Below, piece after piece: positions 9,234 to 34,024 of a stretch of 64,000 bases of DNA. The DNA comes from Thermodesulfobacteriota bacterium (GTDB lineage Bacteria > Desulfobacterota > Desulfarculia > JACQYL01), in NCBI GenBank assembly GCA_963675595.2, contig CAXXLZ010000001.1, forward strand, positions 1,312,001 through 1,376,000. The letters are read 5' to 3'. The notes below the pieces were generated by a model. That model was not told the DNA's origin, searched no databases, and saw nothing but the letters and a program-made list of their open reading frames with translations. Within the stretch, counting starts at the first letter, position 1. Each line of letters begins with the position of its first letter. The position numbers and the translations under genes are program-made.

Positions 9234-10082
9234 TCACTCGGCAATGACGCTCCGAGACAAACACCGCCTCTCAAGTGCGGTTTGGTTTAAAAGCGCCGGA
9301 GACGGGACGGGCGCACGGTCGAACCCTCGCCCACTCAAACGCGAAAGATAGCGGTCTACCTCTTTCTTTCTCTCCATACGGACCAACTCCCGGATGCAAA
9401 AACCGGGCGGGATGGTGGAAAGCGTCGGAACAGCATAAACCCGATGTTCACAAAAAAACGGTTCGTAAACCCCGGACTCGGCCTCAATTGCGTCATAGCC
9501 TCCATCTTCGTCGTCGATTTCTTCGTAGTCGATGGGGGCGGATCTCTCCTCTACAGCGGCAACGCGGCCCGCAAAAGATGGGTCGCCGTCGGAAGGAAAC
9601 AATACAGGAGTTGCCGACAAGAAATCGTCCTGAAGAATCTCCGGATCAGACGCACGGTCGCCAGGTACGATAGGCGCGTAACCCCTGAAATGGGCTCGTA
9701 CGGCACCAGGTTTGACGGCACCGGTATGGGATGACAATAGATTCTTTAGGTTTGAACGGCTTTGGCTTAACAGGCCCCGCGCAAACGGAGAGTCGGGGTT
9801 GAGGATGGTGTCATATGCACAATTTCGAGACAGAGCCCCGGGGGGCTCCTTGACGGGGTGGGGTGATGCATACCCCCCCTCCCCCCCTATTCCTTTACAT
9901 TCCTTCGGCCCCGGATCGGCTTCCGACAGCTCGGCCTCGAGGCCGGCGCAGCAGCCAGCATCCGATACGTCCAGGCATCGCCATCCGGTCATCAAGCCCC
10001 CCAAAAAATTACGAATCAGGAGGGACCATCGTCCGAACGCGCCGGAGGTCCTATGCTGGAACGGACTGAAAAGGCTACGCAT
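9234..10082 (-). CDS. Hypothetical protein
   Basis: Long ORF between TerS and downstream genes; start uncertain, no motif recognised. Confidence 0.35.
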   Translation of the reverse strand: MRSLFSPFQHRTSGAFGRWSLLIRNFLGGLMTGWRCLDVSDAGCCAGLEAELSEADPGPKECKGIGGEGGYASPHPVKEPPGALSRNCAYDTILNPDSPFARGLLSQSRSNLKNLLSSHTGAVKPGAVRAHFRGYAPIVPGDRASDPEILQDDFLSATPVLFPSDGDPSFAGRVAAVEERSAPIDYEEIDDEDGGYDAIEAESGVYEPFFCEHRVYAVPTLSTIPPGFCIRELVRMERKKEVDRYLSRLSGRGFDRAPVPSPALLNQTALERRCLSRSVIAE

Positions 10083-27429: not shown

Positions 27430-29565
27430 ATGACTGAAACCTGCCAAGGAGTCCTACAGGACGTCCGAATCTACAACGCCGCTTCCGGTTGGGGATTCGC
27501 TCGGCTCGTCGGCCAAGAATACAAGGTGGTTGGATGCTTCCCGGCCCTTGAGCCCGGCGACTACTGCGAATTCACCGGGGAATGGACCGAGCATCCGAAG
27601 TACGGGAAACAGTTCAAGGCGTCGTCGGTGTCCATCTCGGTCCCAAAGGATTCCATGGGCTTGCGGAAGTACCTGCAGCAGCGCTTGCCGTGGATCGGTC
27701 CCGTCGCGGCCGGAAGATTGGTCGATGATTACGGGGACCGACTCTTCGACGTCATCCAAAACAACCCCATGGAGTTGATATCCGTAAAGGGTATTACCGA
27801 AGAAAGGGCGTTGAAGATCCACGAGGCATTCCTGTCCGGCCAAAAAGACAAGGACCTGGATATCTTTTTTGCTACCCATAATTTGACCACGGGAATGGTT
27901 GCCCGGCTGGTGGAACGATACGGGGACAAGTCCAAAGCCGCGTCTACCATCAAGGCCGATCCGTATTTGCTGGCTGATGATGTTTATGGCGTCGGCTTCA
28001 AAAAGGCTGACGCCATAGCGTTGTCGGTCGGCATTCCGAAACGCTCCCCGCGGAGAATCAAGGCGGGGATACTATGGTTGCTGAAGGACGCATCCGAGAG
28101 AGCGGGCCATTGTTTTTTGCCCGCATCCGAGATGGGAAGCCTTGGATACAAGCTCCTGGAAGTCTCTCGTGGCGACCTGGGGGACCCCGTTCGTGAGTTG
28201 GCGGACGAGGACGGCGTTATTGTCGAAGGGGACAGGATTGCCCTGTCGGAACTGTATCATGCCGAGGAGGAGATTGCTTCGGCGTTGTTGCGTTTGGCGT
28301 CGGCGCCACATCACGCGGTGATGCGCTCCCTGTCTCAGGACACCTTGGATTCCCTGGATGACGATCAACGACGGGCTCTTACTCTGGCTCTCGAAAGCAA
28401 GGTAAGCGTCATCACGGGAGGACCCGGAACCGGCAAGACGTACACCATTCAAAGAATTCTGGAAGCCCTAGGAGATCGAAAGATTGCTTTGGCCGCGCCC
28501 ACGGGCAAAGCGGCGAAGAGGATGGAGGAGATGACGTCCAGGCCGGCGCAGACCATTCACCGGTTGTTGGAGTTTGTTCCCGCTCCGGCACCCGGGTTTC
28601 GTCGAAACCGGCAGAACCCATTGGATTTCGATTGCGTCATTATCGACGAGACATCCATGGTGGATGTCTCGTTGATGAAGGCATTTTTACGGGCCGTGGA
28701 TCCCGATATGACGCAGTTGATTTTTGTCGGAGACGTGGATCAGCTCCCGAGCGTAGGCCCCGGCATGGCGCTTCGGGACATGATCGACTCTGAGAAGATA
28801 CCCACGGCTCGGCTGACGACATTACACAGACAGTCTGAAAAGTCGTTTATTGCATTGAATGCCCGTGCGGTGAATCGAGGGGAAAAGCTCATTTTGAACG
28901 TAGAAAATAGCGACTTTCACTTCATTCAAGTTGAAGACAAAGACAAGATTCCCGAGAAGATTACTCAAATCGTCAACAGCGTTCCGTCTCAACCCTTCGG
29001 GGTCCCCCTATGGGACATACAGGTTTTATGCCCACAGAGGGTAGGCCCCATCGGCGTAAACGCGCTGAATCCTTTGTTGCGCCCCTTATTCAATCCGGAA
29101 GGCATGGAGCTATCCGGGTTTGGCGGGCTGTATACGGGAGACAGGGTGATTCAGACACGCAACAATTACGACCTTGGAATATTCAACGGCGAAATCGGGG
29201 AGGTTTTACTGCGACAGCCCGAACCGGAAGGAGGACCGGAAGAACTAGACTATGTCGCCGTGCAGTTTCCGCAAGGGATTGTGCCCTATTCGAAGTTGAC
29301 CTGCTCTGAGTTGCAGCCCGCTTATGCGCTGACAATTCACAAGTCTCAGGGATCGGAGTTCCCCTGCGTCATTGTTCCCTTGCACACGACAAATTTCATC
29401 ATGCTCAAGCGGCCGTTGCTGTATACGGCGATTACGCGGGCGAAACAATTGTTGGTTTTGGTTGGGAGCGAGAAAGCCATGAAGGTGGCGATTAAGACGT
29501 TGGACACGTCAAATAGGTATACGCGACTGAAAGAGATGTTATGCCAGGAGGCGGTTAATCGGTAA
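27430..29565 (+). CDS. recD2: RecD2-like SF1B 5'-3' helicase
   Basis: HPKYGKQF, GVGFKKAD, GGPGTGKT, IIDETSM, GDVDQLPSVGPG, AYALTIHKSQGSEF, LLYTAITRAK. Confidence 0.92.
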   Translation: MTETCQGVLQDVRIYNAASGWGFARLVGQEYKVVGCFPALEPGDYCEFTGEWTEHPKYGKQFKASSVSISVPKDSMGLRKYLQQRLPWIGPVAAGRLVDDYGDRLFDVIQNNPMELISVKGITEERALKIHEAFLSGQKDKDLDIFFATHNLTTGMVARLVERYGDKSKAASTIKADPYLLADDVYGVGFKKADAIALSVGIPKRSPRRIKAGILWLLKDASERAGHCFLPASEMGSLGYKLLEVSRGDLGDPVRELADEDGVIVEGDRIALSELYHAEEEIASALLRLASAPHHAVMRSLSQDTLDSLDDDQRRALTLALESKVSVITGGPGTGKTYTIQRILEALGDRKIALAAPTGKAAKRMEEMTSRPAQTIHRLLEFVPAPAPGFRRNRQNPLDFDCVIIDETSMVDVSLMKAFLRAVDPDMTQLIFVGDVDQLPSVGPGMALRDMIDSEKIPTARLTTLHRQSEKSFIALNARAVNRGEKLILNVENSDFHFIQVEDKDKIPEKITQIVNSVPSQPFGVPLWDIQVLCPQRVGPIGVNALNPLLRPLFNPEGMELSGFGGLYTGDRVIQTRNNYDLGIFNGEIGEVLLRQPEPEGGPEELDYVAVQFPQGIVPYSKLTCSELQPAYALTIHKSQGSEFPCVIVPLHTTNFIMLKRPLLYTAITRAKQLLVLVGSEKAMKVAIKTLDTSNRYTRLKEMLCQEAVNR

Positions 29566-29630
29566 CCGCGCCTGCAAACCCGATTACCGATTAACACAAT
29601 ACACGTAACACAACACACGTAACACACACG
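29554..29630 (+). promoter_or_regulatory. Structured leader of the Cas7-like gene (inverted repeat + 14-nt tandem repeat)
   Basis: GTTAATCGGTAA (29554-65)/TTACCGATTAAC (29584-95); TAACACAAYACACG x~3 (29592-29630). Confidence 0.55.
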
Positions 29631-29643
29631 ATCGAAAGGATAC

Positions 29644-30411
29644 ATGAAAATGGGTGAAGCTGCAAAGAAGATTCAAGAAGAGCAAATGAAAGAGACGACG
29701 ACTGCGCCGGCCGAGACGGAAGAAACGGAAGGCAAACGAGGAAGAAAGCCGAAGGCCAAGTCGGAGGCGGGGCCGAAACAGGAAGGCCCGATGTTTCTTC
29801 CCATCGCCGAGCGGACATTCAGGATTACCATGACGGAAACCATGCTTGGGACCATCCCGGCCAACCAGCAGATTTTTTCCGACTACGTCAATTCCAAGGC
29901 CATGACTCCGGAGGAGAGGGAGGAAGAGGCGCTGCTTCAGTCCGGGGAAATCGACGAGGAAACCGGGCTTCCGGCGAACGATCATCATACCGGATTTTTC
30001 CGCGACTCCGCGGGCATCTATCTGATGAACTACCACATCAAGGGCTTCTTGAAGGAGGCCGGGAACATCCTAAAGGAAGCCGCCAAAGTAAAGGCGTTGC
30101 GCTCGAAGATAGATAACAACGTCTTTGTGTTTCCCCGCAAAATCTACCTTGCCAAAACCCACAGCGGCGTCCTGGAACGCCCCCTGCGAGCCCAAACGGC
30201 GCAGGGGCCCCGAGTCGCCCTGGCTCAATCCCTGACCGTGGACGCCGGGATTGCCTTCAATATTACGATTCGACTCCTGGACCACAAAGAGCTGAGTTGG
30301 TCGTTGATCGAATTGCTCCTGGACTACGGGGAGCTGAAAGGTCTTGGGCAGTGGAGAAACGGCGGGTATGGGACGTTTTCCTGGGAAGACATCACCCCCA
30401 AAAAGAAGTAA
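29644..30411 (+). CDS. Stand-alone Cas7/RAMP-superfamily protein
   Basis: RAMP hallmarks: first strand FRITMTETMLG, IYLMNYHIKGFLKEA helix, C-terminal Gly-rich loop LLDYGELKGLGQWRNGGYGTF; RBS GAAAGGA. Confidence 0.8.
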   Translation: MKMGEAAKKIQEEQMKETTTAPAETEETEGKRGRKPKAKSEAGPKQEGPMFLPIAERTFRITMTETMLGTIPANQQIFSDYVNSKAMTPEEREEEALLQSGEIDEETGLPANDHHTGFFRDSAGIYLMNYHIKGFLKEAGNILKEAAKVKALRSKIDNNVFVFPRKIYLAKTHSGVLERPLRAQTAQGPRVALAQSLTVDAGIAFNITIRLLDHKELSWSLIELLLDYGELKGLGQWRNGGYGTFSWEDITPKKK

Positions 30412-30412
30412 C

Positions 30413-32024
30413 GGCAAGGTCGCCCCATTTGCCGCGCCGCCTCGGTTAAGCCAAGCTTCGTACTGCAAGAGCATCGCCCTGTTCCTCGAGGCGAGGTATC
30501 GGCGTGGCAAAGCAATGCAGTGAAATGAGGGCTCAGGCTATGCCTGGTAGTGGGTGGCACGTAAAGGCGGAGCATAGCATGGCATGGTTCTGTAACGGCG
30601 AAGCACGGCGTGGCGCCGCAACGCTCAGGCAAAGTTAGGTGTGGTGTTGCGCCGAGGGCGTTGGCCGGGCGCAGTAGGGCACCGTGAAACTCTGGAAGCA
30701 TAGGTAATCCTGAGTGTCGTTGGAGCAAGGAGGCGCGGAGGCGAAGCCCCGTTGGAGATGGCGGTGCATCGGAACGGCTAAGCCGAGCGATGAAGGGACG
30801 AGACATGCAAGGGCGGAGTGAAGCAGACCGGAGTAACGCCGCGGCATAGCGTGGGTTCAGCAGGGCAACGCTTCGGCACGGCGAAGCAGCGTGATGAAGA
30901 TGAACAAGAAGAGTGTTGCAAGGGAGCAGTAAAGTGTGGAGGAGCAGTGCATCGGCGAGGCGGAGTTGTGCGGGGTTCGTGCACGGAGAGGTAATCCGCT
31001 GAGATGATACGCACGGGCGTGGTCGCGCGCGGAAAAGCAGCGCTTGGGCGGTTCACAGTGTGGAGGCGTTTTGCTTTGGCATAGTCGCTTGAAGAGCCGT
31101 GGTGTATGGCTTTGGCAGGGCGAGGTAAGGCGGGGCAGAGCTTTGGCTTGGAGATGTGCTGCTTTCCTTTGTAACGGCAATTCATGGCGTATATGGGCAC
31201 GTTGAAGCTGCGGTACTGCATTTTACAGCAAGGAGCGTCATGCGCATCAGAGAATGCAAAGGAAAAGCAACGTAATGCAAAGGAAAAGCAACGTTCCGTT
31301 CCTTCCGGCGCAGGCGGGGTACAGCGTCGCGCTTTTTGGCTTAGGCAAAGTGAAGTTCCGCGTGACCCACCAAAGGCAAAGCTCTGTTGAGCTATGTTTC
31401 GGCGATGTTTCGTCCTACAAGGCGCAGGAACGCACAGGCAGGGCGTAGATAGGCATCGGCTTAGCGGGGTACTTACTGCGTCGGCAAGGTTGTGAGAGGC
31501 CGAGTTCGGCGTCGGCAAGGTGCGGCGTTATAACGCTGCGTAGCGCTTTGGCGTAGCGAAGTTTAGCCGAGGCGAAGTTAGGTAAGGCGACGATGCGAAT
31601 TGGCTTGGTACAGCGCTGCACGGACCTGTAATGGTTGTGCCAAGTTCTGAGCAGCCCGGAGATAAACGCAAAGGCACCGCGGCGTCTTCCTGTGCACTAA
31701 GGAGTAAAGGCGTAGCGGGGTACGGATGTGCAACGGCGGAGTAGGAACAAGGCGATGAAGCGTTGTGCGAAGGCACTGCATGGCAAGGTCATGTATACCA
31801 CGGGCGAGGTGTCGTTGGTCAAAGTTCAGCGGCGGCTTAGCTAAGCATAGTGCAGCCGGGGCTATGTAAAGCCGGCTCCGCCAAGGCGTTGCAAAGCTCA
31901 GTTGTGGCAAAGTGCGGTTCAGCGGCGGCAACGCATAGCACGACAAAGTAGCGCGACGGTAGTGCTTAGTTCGGCAAAACAGCGCGACGGCAGTGTCCAA
32001 CATTGCGGTGCTTCGGCGCGGCAA
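30413..32024 (+). ncRNA. Putative guide-RNA array of pentameric NGY-NN units
   Basis: Starts 2 nt after the RAMP stop codon; persistent 5-nt periodicity, e.g. GGCAG GGCGA GGTAA GGCGG GGCAG AGCTT (31114-43); no credible CDS. Repeat structure is seen directly, RNA function is inferred. Confidence 0.7.
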
Positions 32025-32040
32025 ACGAAAGGAAGAAAAA

Positions 32041-32184
32041 ATGACTTACTCGACATTGAAGGAAGCCGGGATTTCGACCCTTCGGGCCTTGGAAAAGAAG
32101 CGGATTACCATCGACGCGCGGCTTTGGTGGTTCATGTTGGGCGGTAGCGTGGTGGGCTTGTTGATGTTGTGGGTAGGGAAATGA
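32041..32184 (+). CDS. Small membrane protein
   Basis: RBS AAAGGAAG; C-terminal TM helix; stop overlaps the MTase ATG. Confidence 0.55.
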   Translation: MTYSTLKEAGISTLRALEKKRITIDARLWWFMLGGSVVGLLMLWVGK

Positions 32185-33317
32185 TCCGAACCGCCCACTT
32201 GTTCGCCGGTGCCGGGGGTGGAATTTACGCCGATTTAATCCTCGGGCACAAGCCCGTGCTGGCCGTCGAAAATAATCCGGAATGCTGCAAGATGCTTGAG
32301 GAGCGAAAACGTGAAGGATGGTGGCCCGAGCTCGACATTCAATGCTGCGACATCCGAGAATTTGACTTCAGCCCCTGGGCCGGACGAGTGGATCAAATCG
32401 CAGCGGGCTTCCCTTGCCAGGATATTTCGTATGCTGGAAGCGGTGATGGAATACGAGGATCACGAAGCGGCCTCGTCTGGGAGGTCTTCCGCGCAATCGA
32501 CGCTATTCGACCTCGATGGGTTTTCCTCGAAAACAGCCCCGCAATACGGACCAAGGGACGGCGGGAAATCATTGCCGCCTTGGTGGAGAAAGGATATTCC
32601 TGGCGAGACGGAACGCTTGCCGCGGCTCATGTCGGAGCGGGCCATCTCCGCAATCGCTGGTGGCTGCTTGCTGCCGACGCTCTGCGCCAGAGATCACAAA
32701 AACAGCGGCGGCATGGTTTTAACGCCAAGAGGGCAGACGCGCCTGCCCACCGCATTAAAACATATGCTGCCCACGATCACGGCAAGCATGGAAACATGGG
32801 CGGACTTTGTTCAGGCGCAATACCACAGCTCGAAGAGGCCGGATTATCAGATAGCGAAGCTACTCCCGACGCTGTTAGCATCAAGCGGGGGAAGAACTCT
32901 TCCGCTAGGCACAACGATAACCGGTATGGCCCCGGATGGCAAAAAGCGGACGGTGGGATTGGACCAAGCCATCAAGATGTTGCCGACGCTGACCGCATCG
33001 GACGCCACGGGAGGATCCGGGACTTCGCCGAACCGGAAAGGCGGCCCGAATCTGCGGACGATGCTGCCGACTCTTTGCGCGACCGACTACAAATTGCCAT
33101 TCAACGAGGAGGGCTATCAGAGAGCGAGTCAAGAACGGTCGAGGCCGTTGCGCGATACACTGCCACATACTACTGGTCACCGCCTGACGCCGGGGTTCTG
33201 CGAGTGGTGGATGGGGTTCCCGCTCGGAGGCACCGCATACAGGCGTTAGGCAACGCCCAGGTGCCTCTACAAGCGGCCATGGCGTGGATATTGTTGATGA
33301 GGGGAGGAATCCATTGA
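32181..33317 (+). CDS. DNA (cytosine-5) methyltransferase, main subunit
   Basis: Motifs I LFAGAGG, IV GFPCQD, VI LENS, VIII HLRNRW, X LGNAQVP. Confidence 0.88.
   Translation: MIRTAHLFAGAGGGIYADLILGHKPVLAVENNPECCKMLEERKREGWWPELDIQCCDIREFDFSPWAGRVDQIAAGFPCQDISYAGSGDGIRGSRSGLVWEVFRAIDAIRPRWVFLENSPAIRTKGRREIIAALVEKGYSWRDGTLAAAHVGAGHLRNRWWLLAADALRQRSQKQRRHGFNAKRADAPAHRIKTYAAHDHGKHGNMGGLCSGAIPQLEEAGLSDSEATPDAVSIKRGKNSSARHNDNRYGPGWQKADGGIGPSHQDVADADRIGRHGRIRDFAEPERRPESADDAADSLRDRLQIAIQRGGLSESESRTVEAVARYTATYYWSPPDAGVLRVVDGVPARRHRIQALGNAQVPLQAAMAWILLMRGGIH
32296..33249 (+). CDS. Nested +1-frame ORF, putative MTase second subunit (motif IX)
   Basis: 317-codon open frame inside the MTase gene with repeated LPTL/LPTI units, ending RLTPGFCEWWMGFP; start codon uncertain. 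Confidence 0.6.
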   Translation: MRSENVKDGGPSSTFNAATSENLTSAPGPDEWIKSQRASLARIFRMLEAVMEYEDHEAASSGRSSAQSTLFDLDGFSSKTAPQYGPRDGGKSLPPWWRKDIPGETERLPRLMSERAISAIAGGCLLPTLCARDHKNSGGMVLTPRGQTRLPTALKHMLPTITASMETWADFVQAQYHSSKRPDYQIAKLLPTLLASSGGRTLPLGTTITGMAPDGKKRTVGLDQAIKMLPTLTASDATGGSGTSPNRKGGPNLRTMLPTLCATDYKLPFNEEGYQRASQERSRPLRDTLPHTTGHRLTPGFCEWWMGFPLGGTAYRR

Positions 33318-33358
33318 TTACCAGAACCGACGGAAGATTAAACAATAAAGGAGGCACC

Positions 33359-33706
33359 ATGAAAATGAACAGGCGCGAGTTTTTGGAGCTACTGGAAGAA
33401 ATCCACTTGGAACTGGTCAACCTGAACACCACAAAAGGCCACGACTACAGCGGCGATGAAAATGTTTTCTCGAACTTCATCCGCGCTGGAGAGCGTCGGG
33501 GCTTGGCCCCGGAAACCGTTCTCGGCGTCTATATGGACAAACATGAGGACGCCATCAACACCTACATCCGAGACGGCCAGGTGAAGTCCGAACCCATCGA
33601 GGGCAGAATCCTGGATTCCATCCTGTATCGGTGTTTGTTGTTGGGTATGGTTCGGGCCCTGCACAATTCGGCCGGCGTTGGCTTATCGGAAAAACCCATG
33701 CCATAG
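33359..33706 (+). CDS. Nucleotide-modification-associated (DUF1599-like) protein
   Basis: KGHDYS..NF...YMDKH...EPIEGRILD pattern; RBS AAGGAGG. Confidence 0.6.
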   Translation: MKMNRREFLELLEEIHLELVNLNTTKGHDYSGDENVFSNFIRAGERRGLAPETVLGVYMDKHEDAINTYIRDGQVKSEPIEGRILDSILYRCLLLGMVRALHNSAGVGLSEKPMP

Positions 33707-33838
33707 GGGTTGGAATCGGTCTTCCTGTTTGGTGGATGCCTCGCTATGAAAGAAAGAAAATGCCACACTCCACAATATGGATGTGTGGATGGTTGCTTGT
33801 AATGATCATGTTCGGGAAACAAAGGAAGGATACATCCG

Positions 33839-34024
33839 ATGCATCCTCAACTTGAAAAGTGGCATTACCGCAAGGCTGAGGCAGGCGGTCCTTCGTGCGC
33901 GACATGCATGAACCGGTGGACGAATAATGGGGGAGAGGTCTGGAGATGTCTACTGATTGATGTTCCGCCGGATCGAGTATCGAACGGTAAAGTTTGCGAT
34001 CAACATAAGCCATGGAGGTTATAA
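33839..34024 (+). CDS. Small Cys-rich hypothetical protein
   Basis: CATC...C...C; RBS GGAAGGA. Confidence 0.45.
   Translation: MHPQLEKWHYRKAEAGGPSCATCMNRWTNNGGEVWRCLLIDVPPDRVSNGKVCDQHKPWRL

What the first reader, a model, noticed from the sequence alone, without database searches (positions are those of the whole stretch)
30413..32024. Higher-order block structure of the array (5n+1 units opening with GGC)
Seen: the pentamer register shifts by +1 at fairly regular intervals, and the new block usually opens with GGCNN. Examples: 30566-96 (6x5+1), 30597-627 (GGCGA AGCAC GGCGT GGCGC CGCAA CGCTC A), 31803-33 (6x5+1), 31834-59 (GGCTT AGCTA AGCAT AGTGC AGCCG G, 5x5+1). Blocks of ~21/26/31 nt would give several tens of units, nearly all different. 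Some stretches (e.g. ~30900-31110) are more degenerate. Inference: the one-nt slip marks boundaries between individual guides or processing sites, making the tract a library of distinct guides rather than a decayed microsatellite.
Basis: partly seen in the sequence, partly recalled or inferred. Interest (0 to 1): 0.8.

Follow-up and report, generated by a model that had tools for sequence, protein, structure and literature searches.

The report
Block grammar of a VIPR array
The 1.6-kb tract is the guide-RNA array of a phage system first described in 2026 (VIPR), and its five-base repeats really are grouped into blocks of about 26-31 bases that open with GGC, a grammar shared by dozens of related phages.

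Summary
Window 30413-32024 splits into 312 repeat units (254 of 5 nt, 55 of 6 nt, 3 of 4 nt). These form 58 blocks whose lengths peak at 31 nt (21 blocks), 26 (8), 36 (6) and 21 (6). The unit after a 6-mer opens with GG in 84% of cases, against 36-38% in two nulls of 150 runs each, none of which reached it.

The same grammar recurs in 62 related phage arrays. The junction there is semi-conserved, GC-R-A-N|GG-Y-A.

The gene just upstream (29644-30411) folds as a Cas7-like RAMP. Of 80 IMG/VR relatives, 75 carry a 5.05-5.32-nt periodic tract beside the gene, against 0 of 4037 distant control windows.

This is the VIPR system of four 2026 bioRxiv preprints (Vipr protein plus GGY/NN vrRNAs). One preprint names tail-less "staggered arrays" in a figure legend.

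So the blocks are real modules. That each block is a separately processed guide is not shown: no RNA data exist. One suggestive own-genome match (58 of 4545 permutations reach it) runs across three junctions.

Verdict: a new member of a known kind, with a quantified block grammar that I did not find in the texts I could search.

The parts
29644..30411 (+). vipr gene: 255-aa Cas7-like RAMP (P0001). Residues 1-50 form a low-confidence Lys/Glu-rich extension that most relatives lack.
   Evidence: No Pfam or PHROG family. AlphaFold2 model with pLDDT 84. Foldseek against PDB: type VII and type III Cas7/Csm3 chains, best E 2.6e-8. 701 relatives of about 200 aa. Invariant G-loop GxGQ[WF]RNG. hhalign to the phiSUSP1 195-aa ORF beside its pentamer arrays, which I take to be its Vipr: probability 63%, E 7e-5.
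30413..32024 (+). vrRNA-type array: 312 repeat units (xGYNN) in 58 blocks. It starts 2 nt after the vipr stop codon and ends 16 nt before the next ORF (32041).
   Evidence: No Rfam family at E <= 1. No promoter or terminator excess.
30597..30627 (+). Example of a canonical 31-nt block: a GGC-opening unit, four more 5-mers, and a closing 6-mer.
31803..31859 (+). Two adjacent canonical blocks, 31 nt (31803-31833) and 26 nt (31834-31859).
31253..31294 (+). Exact tandem duplication of 21 nt, the length of one 4-unit block (3x5+6).
30700..31110 (+). Weaker, partly degenerate part of the array, with runs of consecutive 6-mers and poor GY units.

Best explanation
The tract is the guide-RNA array of a prophage-borne VIPR system. 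The gene just upstream encodes the Vipr protein, a minimal Cas7-like RAMP.

Published mechanism (SUSP1 and P. fulva systems; inferred here by homology). Vipr protomers polymerise along the RNA, one per pentamer. They sequester the conserved G-Y(-G) bases and present the variable bases to pair with double-stranded DNA. One target base is skipped per repeat. The result is silencing of competing mobile elements.

What is particular to this clade (shown here). The array has no tails or leaders. It is one continuous run of repeats punctuated into blocks of mostly 5-6 repeats. The first repeat of a block carries the full GGY. Inner repeats keep only G2 and Y3 (xGYNN). The last repeat carries one extra base.

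My reading (inferred). The blocks are the functional modules of the array. The full GGY is the strong assembly site. The extra base breaks the 5-nt register on which two adjacent protomers jointly hold one motif. One transcript, probably co-transcribed with vipr, would thus be partitioned into dozens of short segments of about one helical turn each, whether by cleavage or only by interrupted filament growth.
For: Identity as VIPR:
- RAMP fold and a G-loop aligned to SUSP1 D177/W178/R179 (residue roles).
- 75 of 80 IMG/VR relatives carry a 5.05-5.32-nt periodic tract within 2.5 kb of the gene, against 0 of 4037 windows farther away.
- The tract is G-rich on the gene strand in all 75, whether it lies downstream (45 loci) or upstream (31; L005 has both).
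- The preprints describe this pairing of protein and GGY/NN array.

Blocks as modules:
- Across 61 arrays there are 1276 blocks, 1157 ending in a 6-mer and 119 in a 4-mer.
- Units per block peak at 6 (305) and 5 (265). A geometric process would give 76 and 95. The CV is 0.44 against 0.90.
- GG follows a 6-mer in 920 of 1177 cases, against 1211 of 5309 other units, in 62 arrays.
- Pooled logos show the junction GC-R-A-N|GG-Y-A, with the lowest information at the variable bases of the inner repeats.
- Adjacent block lengths are not anticorrelated.
- Between related arrays, positions 2 and 3 change at 8.5% and 10.6%, and positions 1, 4 and 5 at 21-23%.
- A 21-nt duplication and a 31-nt indel have block size.
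- The Fig. S18 legend on staggered arrays fits this layout.
- The SUSP1 binary filament has six protomers per turn and the ternary five, which matches the 5-6 repeat mode.
Against: - Nothing here shows expression, cleavage or separate action of blocks.
- Under the published NN rule, 5-6 repeats give only 10-12 specified bases. Characterised vrRNAs have 9-16 repeats, and some natural ones up to 30.
- No target enrichment was found for single blocks in the own genome. Exact 12-of-12 hits numbered 29 with the 1-nt skip, against 17 and 27 with skips 0 and 2.
- The only suggestive match spans 11 repeats across three junctions.
- Homology to the SUSP1 protein is weak at sequence level (probability 63%).
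- The most frequent clean indel between related arrays is 5 nt, one repeat (26 cases), not a whole block.
- No conserved accessory (vap) gene was found, although the preprint calls one typical.
Confidence: 0.55

Rival explanations
1. Guides span several blocks. The extra base is internal punctuation, mirrored by one extra skipped base in the target (guide 6 nt to target 4 nt). The block is therefore not the unit of targeting.
For: I searched the own genome from seeds of 5 exact repeats and extended them. The best hit matches 21 of 22 NN bases over 11 repeats (array 31698-31755). It crosses three 6-mers and fits only if the target skips one extra base at each. It lies at the 5' end of a cheW-like gene on contig C2. 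Only 58 of 4545 shuffles of the NN pairs reach that extension score. Characterised vrRNAs carry 9-16 repeats.
Against: It is a single hit, with p about 0.013 before correcting for the two junction models tried. Both guide and target are G/A-rich. It is a host gene, whereas the preprints report no self-targeting on the source contig. In the set of 80 loci, neither junction model beat the skip-0 or skip-2 controls. It does not explain why block ends are semi-conserved.
Confidence: 0.25
2. The +1 is a structural spacer that keeps a very long Vipr filament in step with its helical turn, one extra base and one full GGY per turn of about six protomers. It has no role as a boundary.
For: The SUSP1 binary filament has six-subunit periodicity and the ternary five. 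Block modes are 6 and 5 repeats. The mean period of 5.17 nt holds over more than 200 nt.
Against: Block lengths range from 4 to 7 repeats and do not compensate each other (r = +0.11), so register with a fixed turn would drift. SUSP1 vrRNAs run 15 repeats with no extra base.
Confidence: 0.1
3. The signal acts at the DNA level: a half-turn (about 10.3 bp / 2) periodic binding or curvature signal. This was my first idea on seeing a non-integer period.
For: The period of 5.15-5.17 nt is close to half a helical repeat.
Against: The period is simply 31/6, produced by discrete blocks. G-richness sits on the gene strand in 75 of 75 arrays. The partner is an RNA-binding RAMP.
Confidence: 0.03
4. A decayed pentanucleotide microsatellite without function.
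For: One part is degenerate (30700-31110). Growth by duplication is visible.
Against: The grammar is conserved in 62 arrays beside a conserved gene. G2 and Y3 evolve 2-2.5 times more slowly than the other positions. Both nulls were exceeded in all 150 runs each.
Confidence: 0.02

Closest known systems
VIPR type II (Escherichia phage SUSP1, P. fulva prophage). bioRxiv 10.64898/2026.04.26.720920 (Results, Discussion and three Methods sections read) and 10.64898/2026.04.26.720927 (Results and Discussion read).
   Same: A small stand-alone RAMP next to tandem pentamers with conserved G-G-Y and variable bases. Phage-borne. The array lies on the gene strand. The G-loop W and R that hold G2 and Y3 are kept.
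   Different: SUSP1 vrRNAs are separate units of a leader, about 15 strict GGYNN repeats in one register, and a structured 3' tail (read directly). Here there is no tail or leader, a +1 shift about every 5-6 repeats, G1 kept only at block starts, Q instead of D at the G-loop residue that contacts G1, and no conserved vap gene.
'Staggered vrRNA arrays' of the same preprint (Fig. S18; legend seen, figure and supplementary data not seen).
   Same: [quoted passage not shown]
   Different: I cannot tell whether that figure shows this clade or the same arithmetic. The legend speaks of a 1-nt overlap. Here the junction carries an extra, mostly non-G base (6th position: A .29, C .36, G .22, T .13). 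No block-length statistics or junction consensus appear in the texts I searched.
CRISPR arrays and the Class 1 Cas7 backbone.
   Same: RAMP fold. A conserved short element alternating with variable sequence. Many different units in one array.
   Different: There are no 23-50-nt direct repeats and no cas1/cas2 or other cas genes nearby. The periodicity is 5 nt with a 6th base only at block ends, whereas crRNA-target pairing is disrupted at every sixth position in Class 1 CRISPR, as the preprint states.

Membership tests
VIPR (Vipr + vrRNA) | Small RAMP protein (RRM core, glycine-rich loop, thumb) outside a CRISPR-Cas locus | tested here: met
   Foldseek gives type VII and type III Cas7 chains at E 2.6e-8 to 1e-5. 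G-loop GxGQ[WF]RNG is invariant. The seven neighbouring ORFs scanned have no Cas families.
VIPR (Vipr + vrRNA) | Homology to an experimentally characterised Vipr | tested here: inconclusive
   hhalign of A1 against the phiSUSP1 195-aa ORF beside its pentamer arrays gives probability 62.7%, E 7.2e-5 over 128 columns, with the G-loop aligned. tblastn of P0001 finds no SUSP1 hit. That this ORF is the published Vipr is my inference, from its position and from residues C173/D177/W178/R179 matching the paper's numbering.
VIPR (Vipr + vrRNA) | Flanking tandem pentamer repeats with a fixed G-G-Y (or related) motif and variable bases, on the gene strand | tested here: met
   Seen in 75 of 80 relatives against 0 of 4037 control windows. 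Inner repeats fit the 'related consensus' (xGYNN / YNNNG) that the preprint mentions.
VIPR (Vipr + vrRNA) | Viral or proviral location | tested here: met
   An integrase, a C5 methylase and a RecD2-like helicase lie nearby. At least 572 IMG/VR contigs encode relatives.
VIPR (Vipr + vrRNA) | vrRNA expressed and bound by Vipr | not testable with these tools
   No RNA holder was listed.
VIPR (Vipr + vrRNA) | Variable bases match DNA targets with a 1-nt skip | tested here: inconclusive
   In the own genome and in the 80 loci there is no excess over the skip-0 and skip-2 controls. There is one suggestive hit. The host pangenome and IMG/VR were not searched.
VIPR type II architecture | Discrete vrRNAs of 9-16 in-register repeats capped by a conserved structured 3' tail, with vap1 | tested here: not met
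   No tail or leader, a shift about every 5-6 repeats, and only 90 of 1157 blocks with 8 or more repeats. No conserved neighbouring gene.
VIPR 'staggered array' architecture | Abutting vrRNAs offset by one nucleotide, without tails | tested here: inconclusive
   The layout fits the legend. The figure and supplementary data were not available, and the junction here is an extra base rather than an evident overlap.
CRISPR array | Direct repeats of about 23-50 nt separated by spacers, with adaptation genes | tested here: not met
   TRF and the repeat finder show no such repeats in the tract. No cas1 or cas2 among the neighbours.

The most novel reading that the evidence does not exclude
This clade of VIPR arrays uses a miniature repeat-spacer grammar. 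A junction of about 9 nt (GC-R-A-N|GG-Y-A) carries a deliberate +1 register break. That break, rather than a tail, a ribozyme or a dedicated nuclease, partitions one transcript into dozens of Vipr filaments of 5-6 protomers, about one helical turn each. This would be the simplest known way to build a multi-guide array, and a plausible intermediate between tandem-repeat guides and CRISPR repeat-spacer arrays. A variant: the extra guide base is mirrored by an extra skipped target base, which would extend the published recognition code.
Probability: 0.3. Interest if true: 0.6.

Novelty: new member of a known kind. Interest (0 to 1): 0.38.

Why it matters
VIPR was described only in 2026 and is proposed as the ancestor of CRISPR RAMP effectors. 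All its experimental work is on arrays of the SUSP1 and P. fulva kind, which have tails.

This locus belongs to a large clade: 701 proteins at E <= 0.001, and at least 572 IMG/VR contigs. Its arrays are tail-less, lack a conserved accessory gene, and follow a countable block grammar.

Knowing whether a block is a guide, a filament turn or only punctuation would settle three things: the minimal length of a working vrRNA, how multi-guide arrays are partitioned, and whether the recognition code tolerates an extra base. Those points bear on the evolutionary story and on use of the system as a tool. As a piece of annotation, it also explains a 1.6-kb 'non-coding' gap in this prophage.

Tried and rejected
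1. DNA half-turn or curvature idea, and a ring-protein (triplet plus 2-3-nt spacer) idea recalled from memory. I dropped both once the period resolved into discrete 5n+1 blocks beside a RAMP gene.

2. Rfam. No match at E <= 1 in 28000-34000, so this is not a hammerhead-interspersed array.

3. RNA evidence. No RNA holder was listed. The three runs I laid are contigs identical to the window wherever a piece of the array lies on it. No block gain or loss is visible, apart from one T put in behind 31267 in two X3 contigs.

4. Targets in the own genome.
- Single blocks with at most 1 mismatch showed no excess for the 1-nt skip.
- No collinear hits of adjacent blocks were found. The array itself was recovered under skip 3, which served as a positive control with 26 pairs.
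- A contiguous-triplet rule (N4 N5 plus the next base) gave 88 hits with at most 2 mismatches, against 63, 70 and 64 in three shuffles, and no exact hit.

5. Targets among the 80 loci. Seed-and-extend showed no excess over the controls. The best case (L077 on L027) is A-rich low-complexity sequence and was discarded.

6. Accessory genes. RecD2, the C5 methylase, the 47-aa ORF and the other window neighbours scored 0 of 80 loci, and the integrase 2 of 80. No neighbour cluster other than vipr and its antisense shadow ORFs covers more than 16 loci.

7. Promoter and terminator scan. No more sites than in the shuffles.

8. VIPR type. I could not assign one, because the type tables and Fig. 5A, S16-S18 are images or supplements that I could not see.

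9. Rows dropped.
- Five of 80 loci had no tract at power above 5 (L009, L013, L014, L057, L066).
- Segmentation used the 62 loci with power above 6 and at least 250 nt of tract.
- L033 and L078, duplicates of L032 and L077, were dropped but are included.
- In one search, one of the 12 pairs (L070/L073) had no segmented array.

Full report
What is there

Window 30413-32024 lies between a 255-aa ORF (29644-30411, + strand) and a 47-aa ORF (32041-32184). The tract is G-rich on the + strand (G 584 of 1612) and matches no Rfam family at E <= 1.

Its base periodicity is 5.15-5.17 nt, not 5.00, with a strong harmonic at 2.58. Autocorrelation peaks follow multiples of 31/6 out to at least 201 nt, and the envelope has maxima at 26-31, 57-62 and 93. 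It is also the only such tract in the 6.8-Mb genome. The one other window that passed (C2:4382801) is a CRISPR array.

Checking the block claim

I segmented the tract with a semi-Markov model: units of 4-7 nt, one position matrix per length, hard EM, and no dependence between successive units.
- It found 254 five-mers, 55 six-mers and 3 four-mers.
- Cutting after each non-5 unit gives 58 blocks. Their lengths are 31 nt (21 blocks), 26 (8), 36 (6) and 21 (6), plus shorter ones in the degenerate part.
The fourth (30566-96) falls inside a single 96-nt block that ends at 30596.
- The unit after a non-5 unit begins with GGY in 42 of 58 cases, against 56 of 253 elsewhere.

A decoder could prefer to place the extra base before a good GG. 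I therefore ran two nulls of 150 runs each: independent units simulated from the fitted model, and real units in shuffled order. Neither came near the observed values:
- GG after a 6-mer was 0.84, against null means of 0.36 and 0.38 and maxima of 0.55 and 0.51.
- The share of blocks with 5-6 units was 0.50, against a mean of 0.15 and maxima of 0.27 and 0.31.

What it belongs to

The upstream ORF has no Pfam or PHROG family, but it has 701 relatives of about 200 aa, all unnamed. A model built on 30 of them (pLDDT 84) matches Cas7/Csm3-type RAMP chains of type VII and type III CRISPR complexes (best E 2.6e-8).

A profile scan of IMG/VR found at least 572 contigs with a relative, of which 80 were fetched.
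- In 75 of the 80, a tract with period 5.05-5.32 nt abuts the gene: downstream in 45 and upstream in 31, with L005 having both.
- None of 4037 windows more than 2.5 kb from the gene passes the same threshold.
- In all 75 the tract is G-rich on the gene's coding strand.

A literature search then showed that this pairing is published as the VIPR system. The Vipr protein is a minimal RAMP, and the vrRNAs are made of GGY/NN pentamers whose NN bases read double-stranded DNA while skipping every third target base (10.64898/2026.04.26.720920). A companion paper gives structures (10.64898/2026.04.26.720927). Two later preprints exist. Of those I saw the outline and searched passages for one, and searched passages only for the other.

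The phiSUSP1 locus, read directly, shows the characterised layout: a leader, about 15 strict GGYNN repeats in one register, then a hairpin tail, three times over. The SUSP1 195-aa ORF beside these arrays aligns weakly with my family profile (probability 63%, E 7e-5). Its G-loop D177-W178-R179 sits opposite Q236-W237-R238 of the window protein. According to the structure paper, D177 contacts G1, W178 stacks on G2 and R179 holds Y3.

The grammar is a property of the clade

The same segmentation, trained separately on each of 62 related arrays, gives a mean period of 5.08-5.25 nt.
- GG follows a 6-mer in 920 of 1177 cases, against 1211 of 5309 other units.
- With duplicates removed and the window added there are 61 arrays and 1276 blocks. 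Of these, 1157 end in a 6-mer and 119 in a 4-mer.
- Units per block peak at 6 (305) and 5 (265), where a geometric process with the same mean predicts 76 and 95. The CV is 0.44 against 0.90.

Pooled logos of 26-, 31- and 36-nt blocks show three features:
- G2 is near-invariant and Y3 is preferred in every unit.
- G1 is strong only in the first unit (0.86-0.92).
- The junction is semi-conserved as GC-R-A-N|GG-Y-A. The variable bases of the inner units carry almost no information.

Between arrays of closely related phages, positions 2 and 3 differ at 8.5% and 10.6%, and positions 1, 4 and 5 at 21-23%. Indels are most often 5 nt (26 cases). Block-sized ones also occur: 31 nt between L063 and L064, and 21, 26 and 35 nt elsewhere. 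In the window, the only exact repeat is a 21-nt tandem duplication, the length of one 4-unit block.

What the blocks mean

Three readings remain.

(a) Blocks are modules that act separately. In favour:
- the peaked length distribution;
- the distinct block ends;
- the lack of compensation between neighbouring block lengths (r = +0.11, n = 759);
- a mechanistic argument: two adjacent protomers jointly hold one GGY, so a 6-nt spacing should disturb filament growth.

(b) Guides span several blocks. In favour: characterised guides have 9-16 repeats. In addition, one own-genome match covers 21 of 22 NN bases over 11 repeats and crosses three 6-mers. It fits only if the target skips one extra base at each. 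It lies at the start of a cheW-like gene on contig C2. Shuffling the NN pairs reaches that score in 58 of 4545 trials. That is suggestive, but it is a single hit in G/A-rich sequence, found after trying two junction models.

(c) The extra base keeps a long filament in step with its turn of about six protomers. The spread of 4-7 repeats, without compensation, argues against this.

No RNA data exist to decide between these, and I could not search the host pangenome or IMG/VR for gapped targets. I put (a) at about 0.55, (b) at 0.25 and (c) at 0.1.

Context

Nothing but vipr and the array is conserved around the locus. RecD2, the methylase and the small ORF are found in 0 of 80 related loci, and no other neighbour cluster covers more than 16 loci. 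The RecD2-partner idea is therefore not supported. The array carries no more promoter- or terminator-like sites than shuffles do. It starts 2 nt after the vipr stop codon, which suggests co-transcription. This last point is an inference.

Novelty

The system is known from preprints of April to October 2026, and a tail-less 'staggered' architecture is named there. The main texts and legends I could search do not give the block arithmetic, the junction consensus, the restriction of G1 to block starts, or the absence of a tail and a vap gene in this clade. I therefore file this as a new member of a known kind, with a quantified grammar that poses a testable question about minimal guide length and array partitioning.

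Noticed in passing
genome contig C2, about 3007520-3007560 (minus strand); outside the window: The 5' end of a 157-aa cheW-like ORF matches 21 of 22 variable dinucleotides of array repeats 31698-31755 under a 1-nt skip, with one extra skipped base at each 6-mer. 58 of 4545 NN shuffles reach this score.
   Followed up: partly
genome contig C2, 4382701-4383400; outside the window: A canonical CRISPR array with a repeat of about 29 nt and a 61-nt period. The host therefore carries CRISPR while its prophage carries VIPR. Spacers were not compared with the prophage.
   Followed up: no
window 27430-29565: A RecD2-type helicase (OB, HHH, AAA_19/30, SH3 and UvrD_C domains) sits 78 bp upstream of vipr. 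No relative of it lies within the fetched flanks of any of the 80 related vipr loci.
   Followed up: yes
window 29644-29800 (P0001 residues 1-50): A Lys/Glu-rich N-terminal extension with low model confidence that most of the 29 aligned relatives lack.
   Followed up: no
window 31267: Two contigs of run X3 carry an extra T behind this position, inside the 21-nt duplication. All other laid pieces are identical to the window.
   Followed up: no
L047:9890-10220: A different periodic tract with a period of exactly 5.0/10 nt, in which AAGCA pentamers alternate with variable pentamers, arranged in three 90-nt copies. It may lie within an ORF that starts at 9677.
   Followed up: no
L005, L062, L077/L078: Some relatives carry two periodic tracts. 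In L005 they flank the gene. In L062 and L077 there are two stretches downstream.
   Followed up: no
window 32169-33317: A C5 cytosine methyltransferase. The Pfam match covers only residues 7-174 of 382. Earlier first-reader notes suggest an unusual frame arrangement here, which I did not examine.
   Followed up: no
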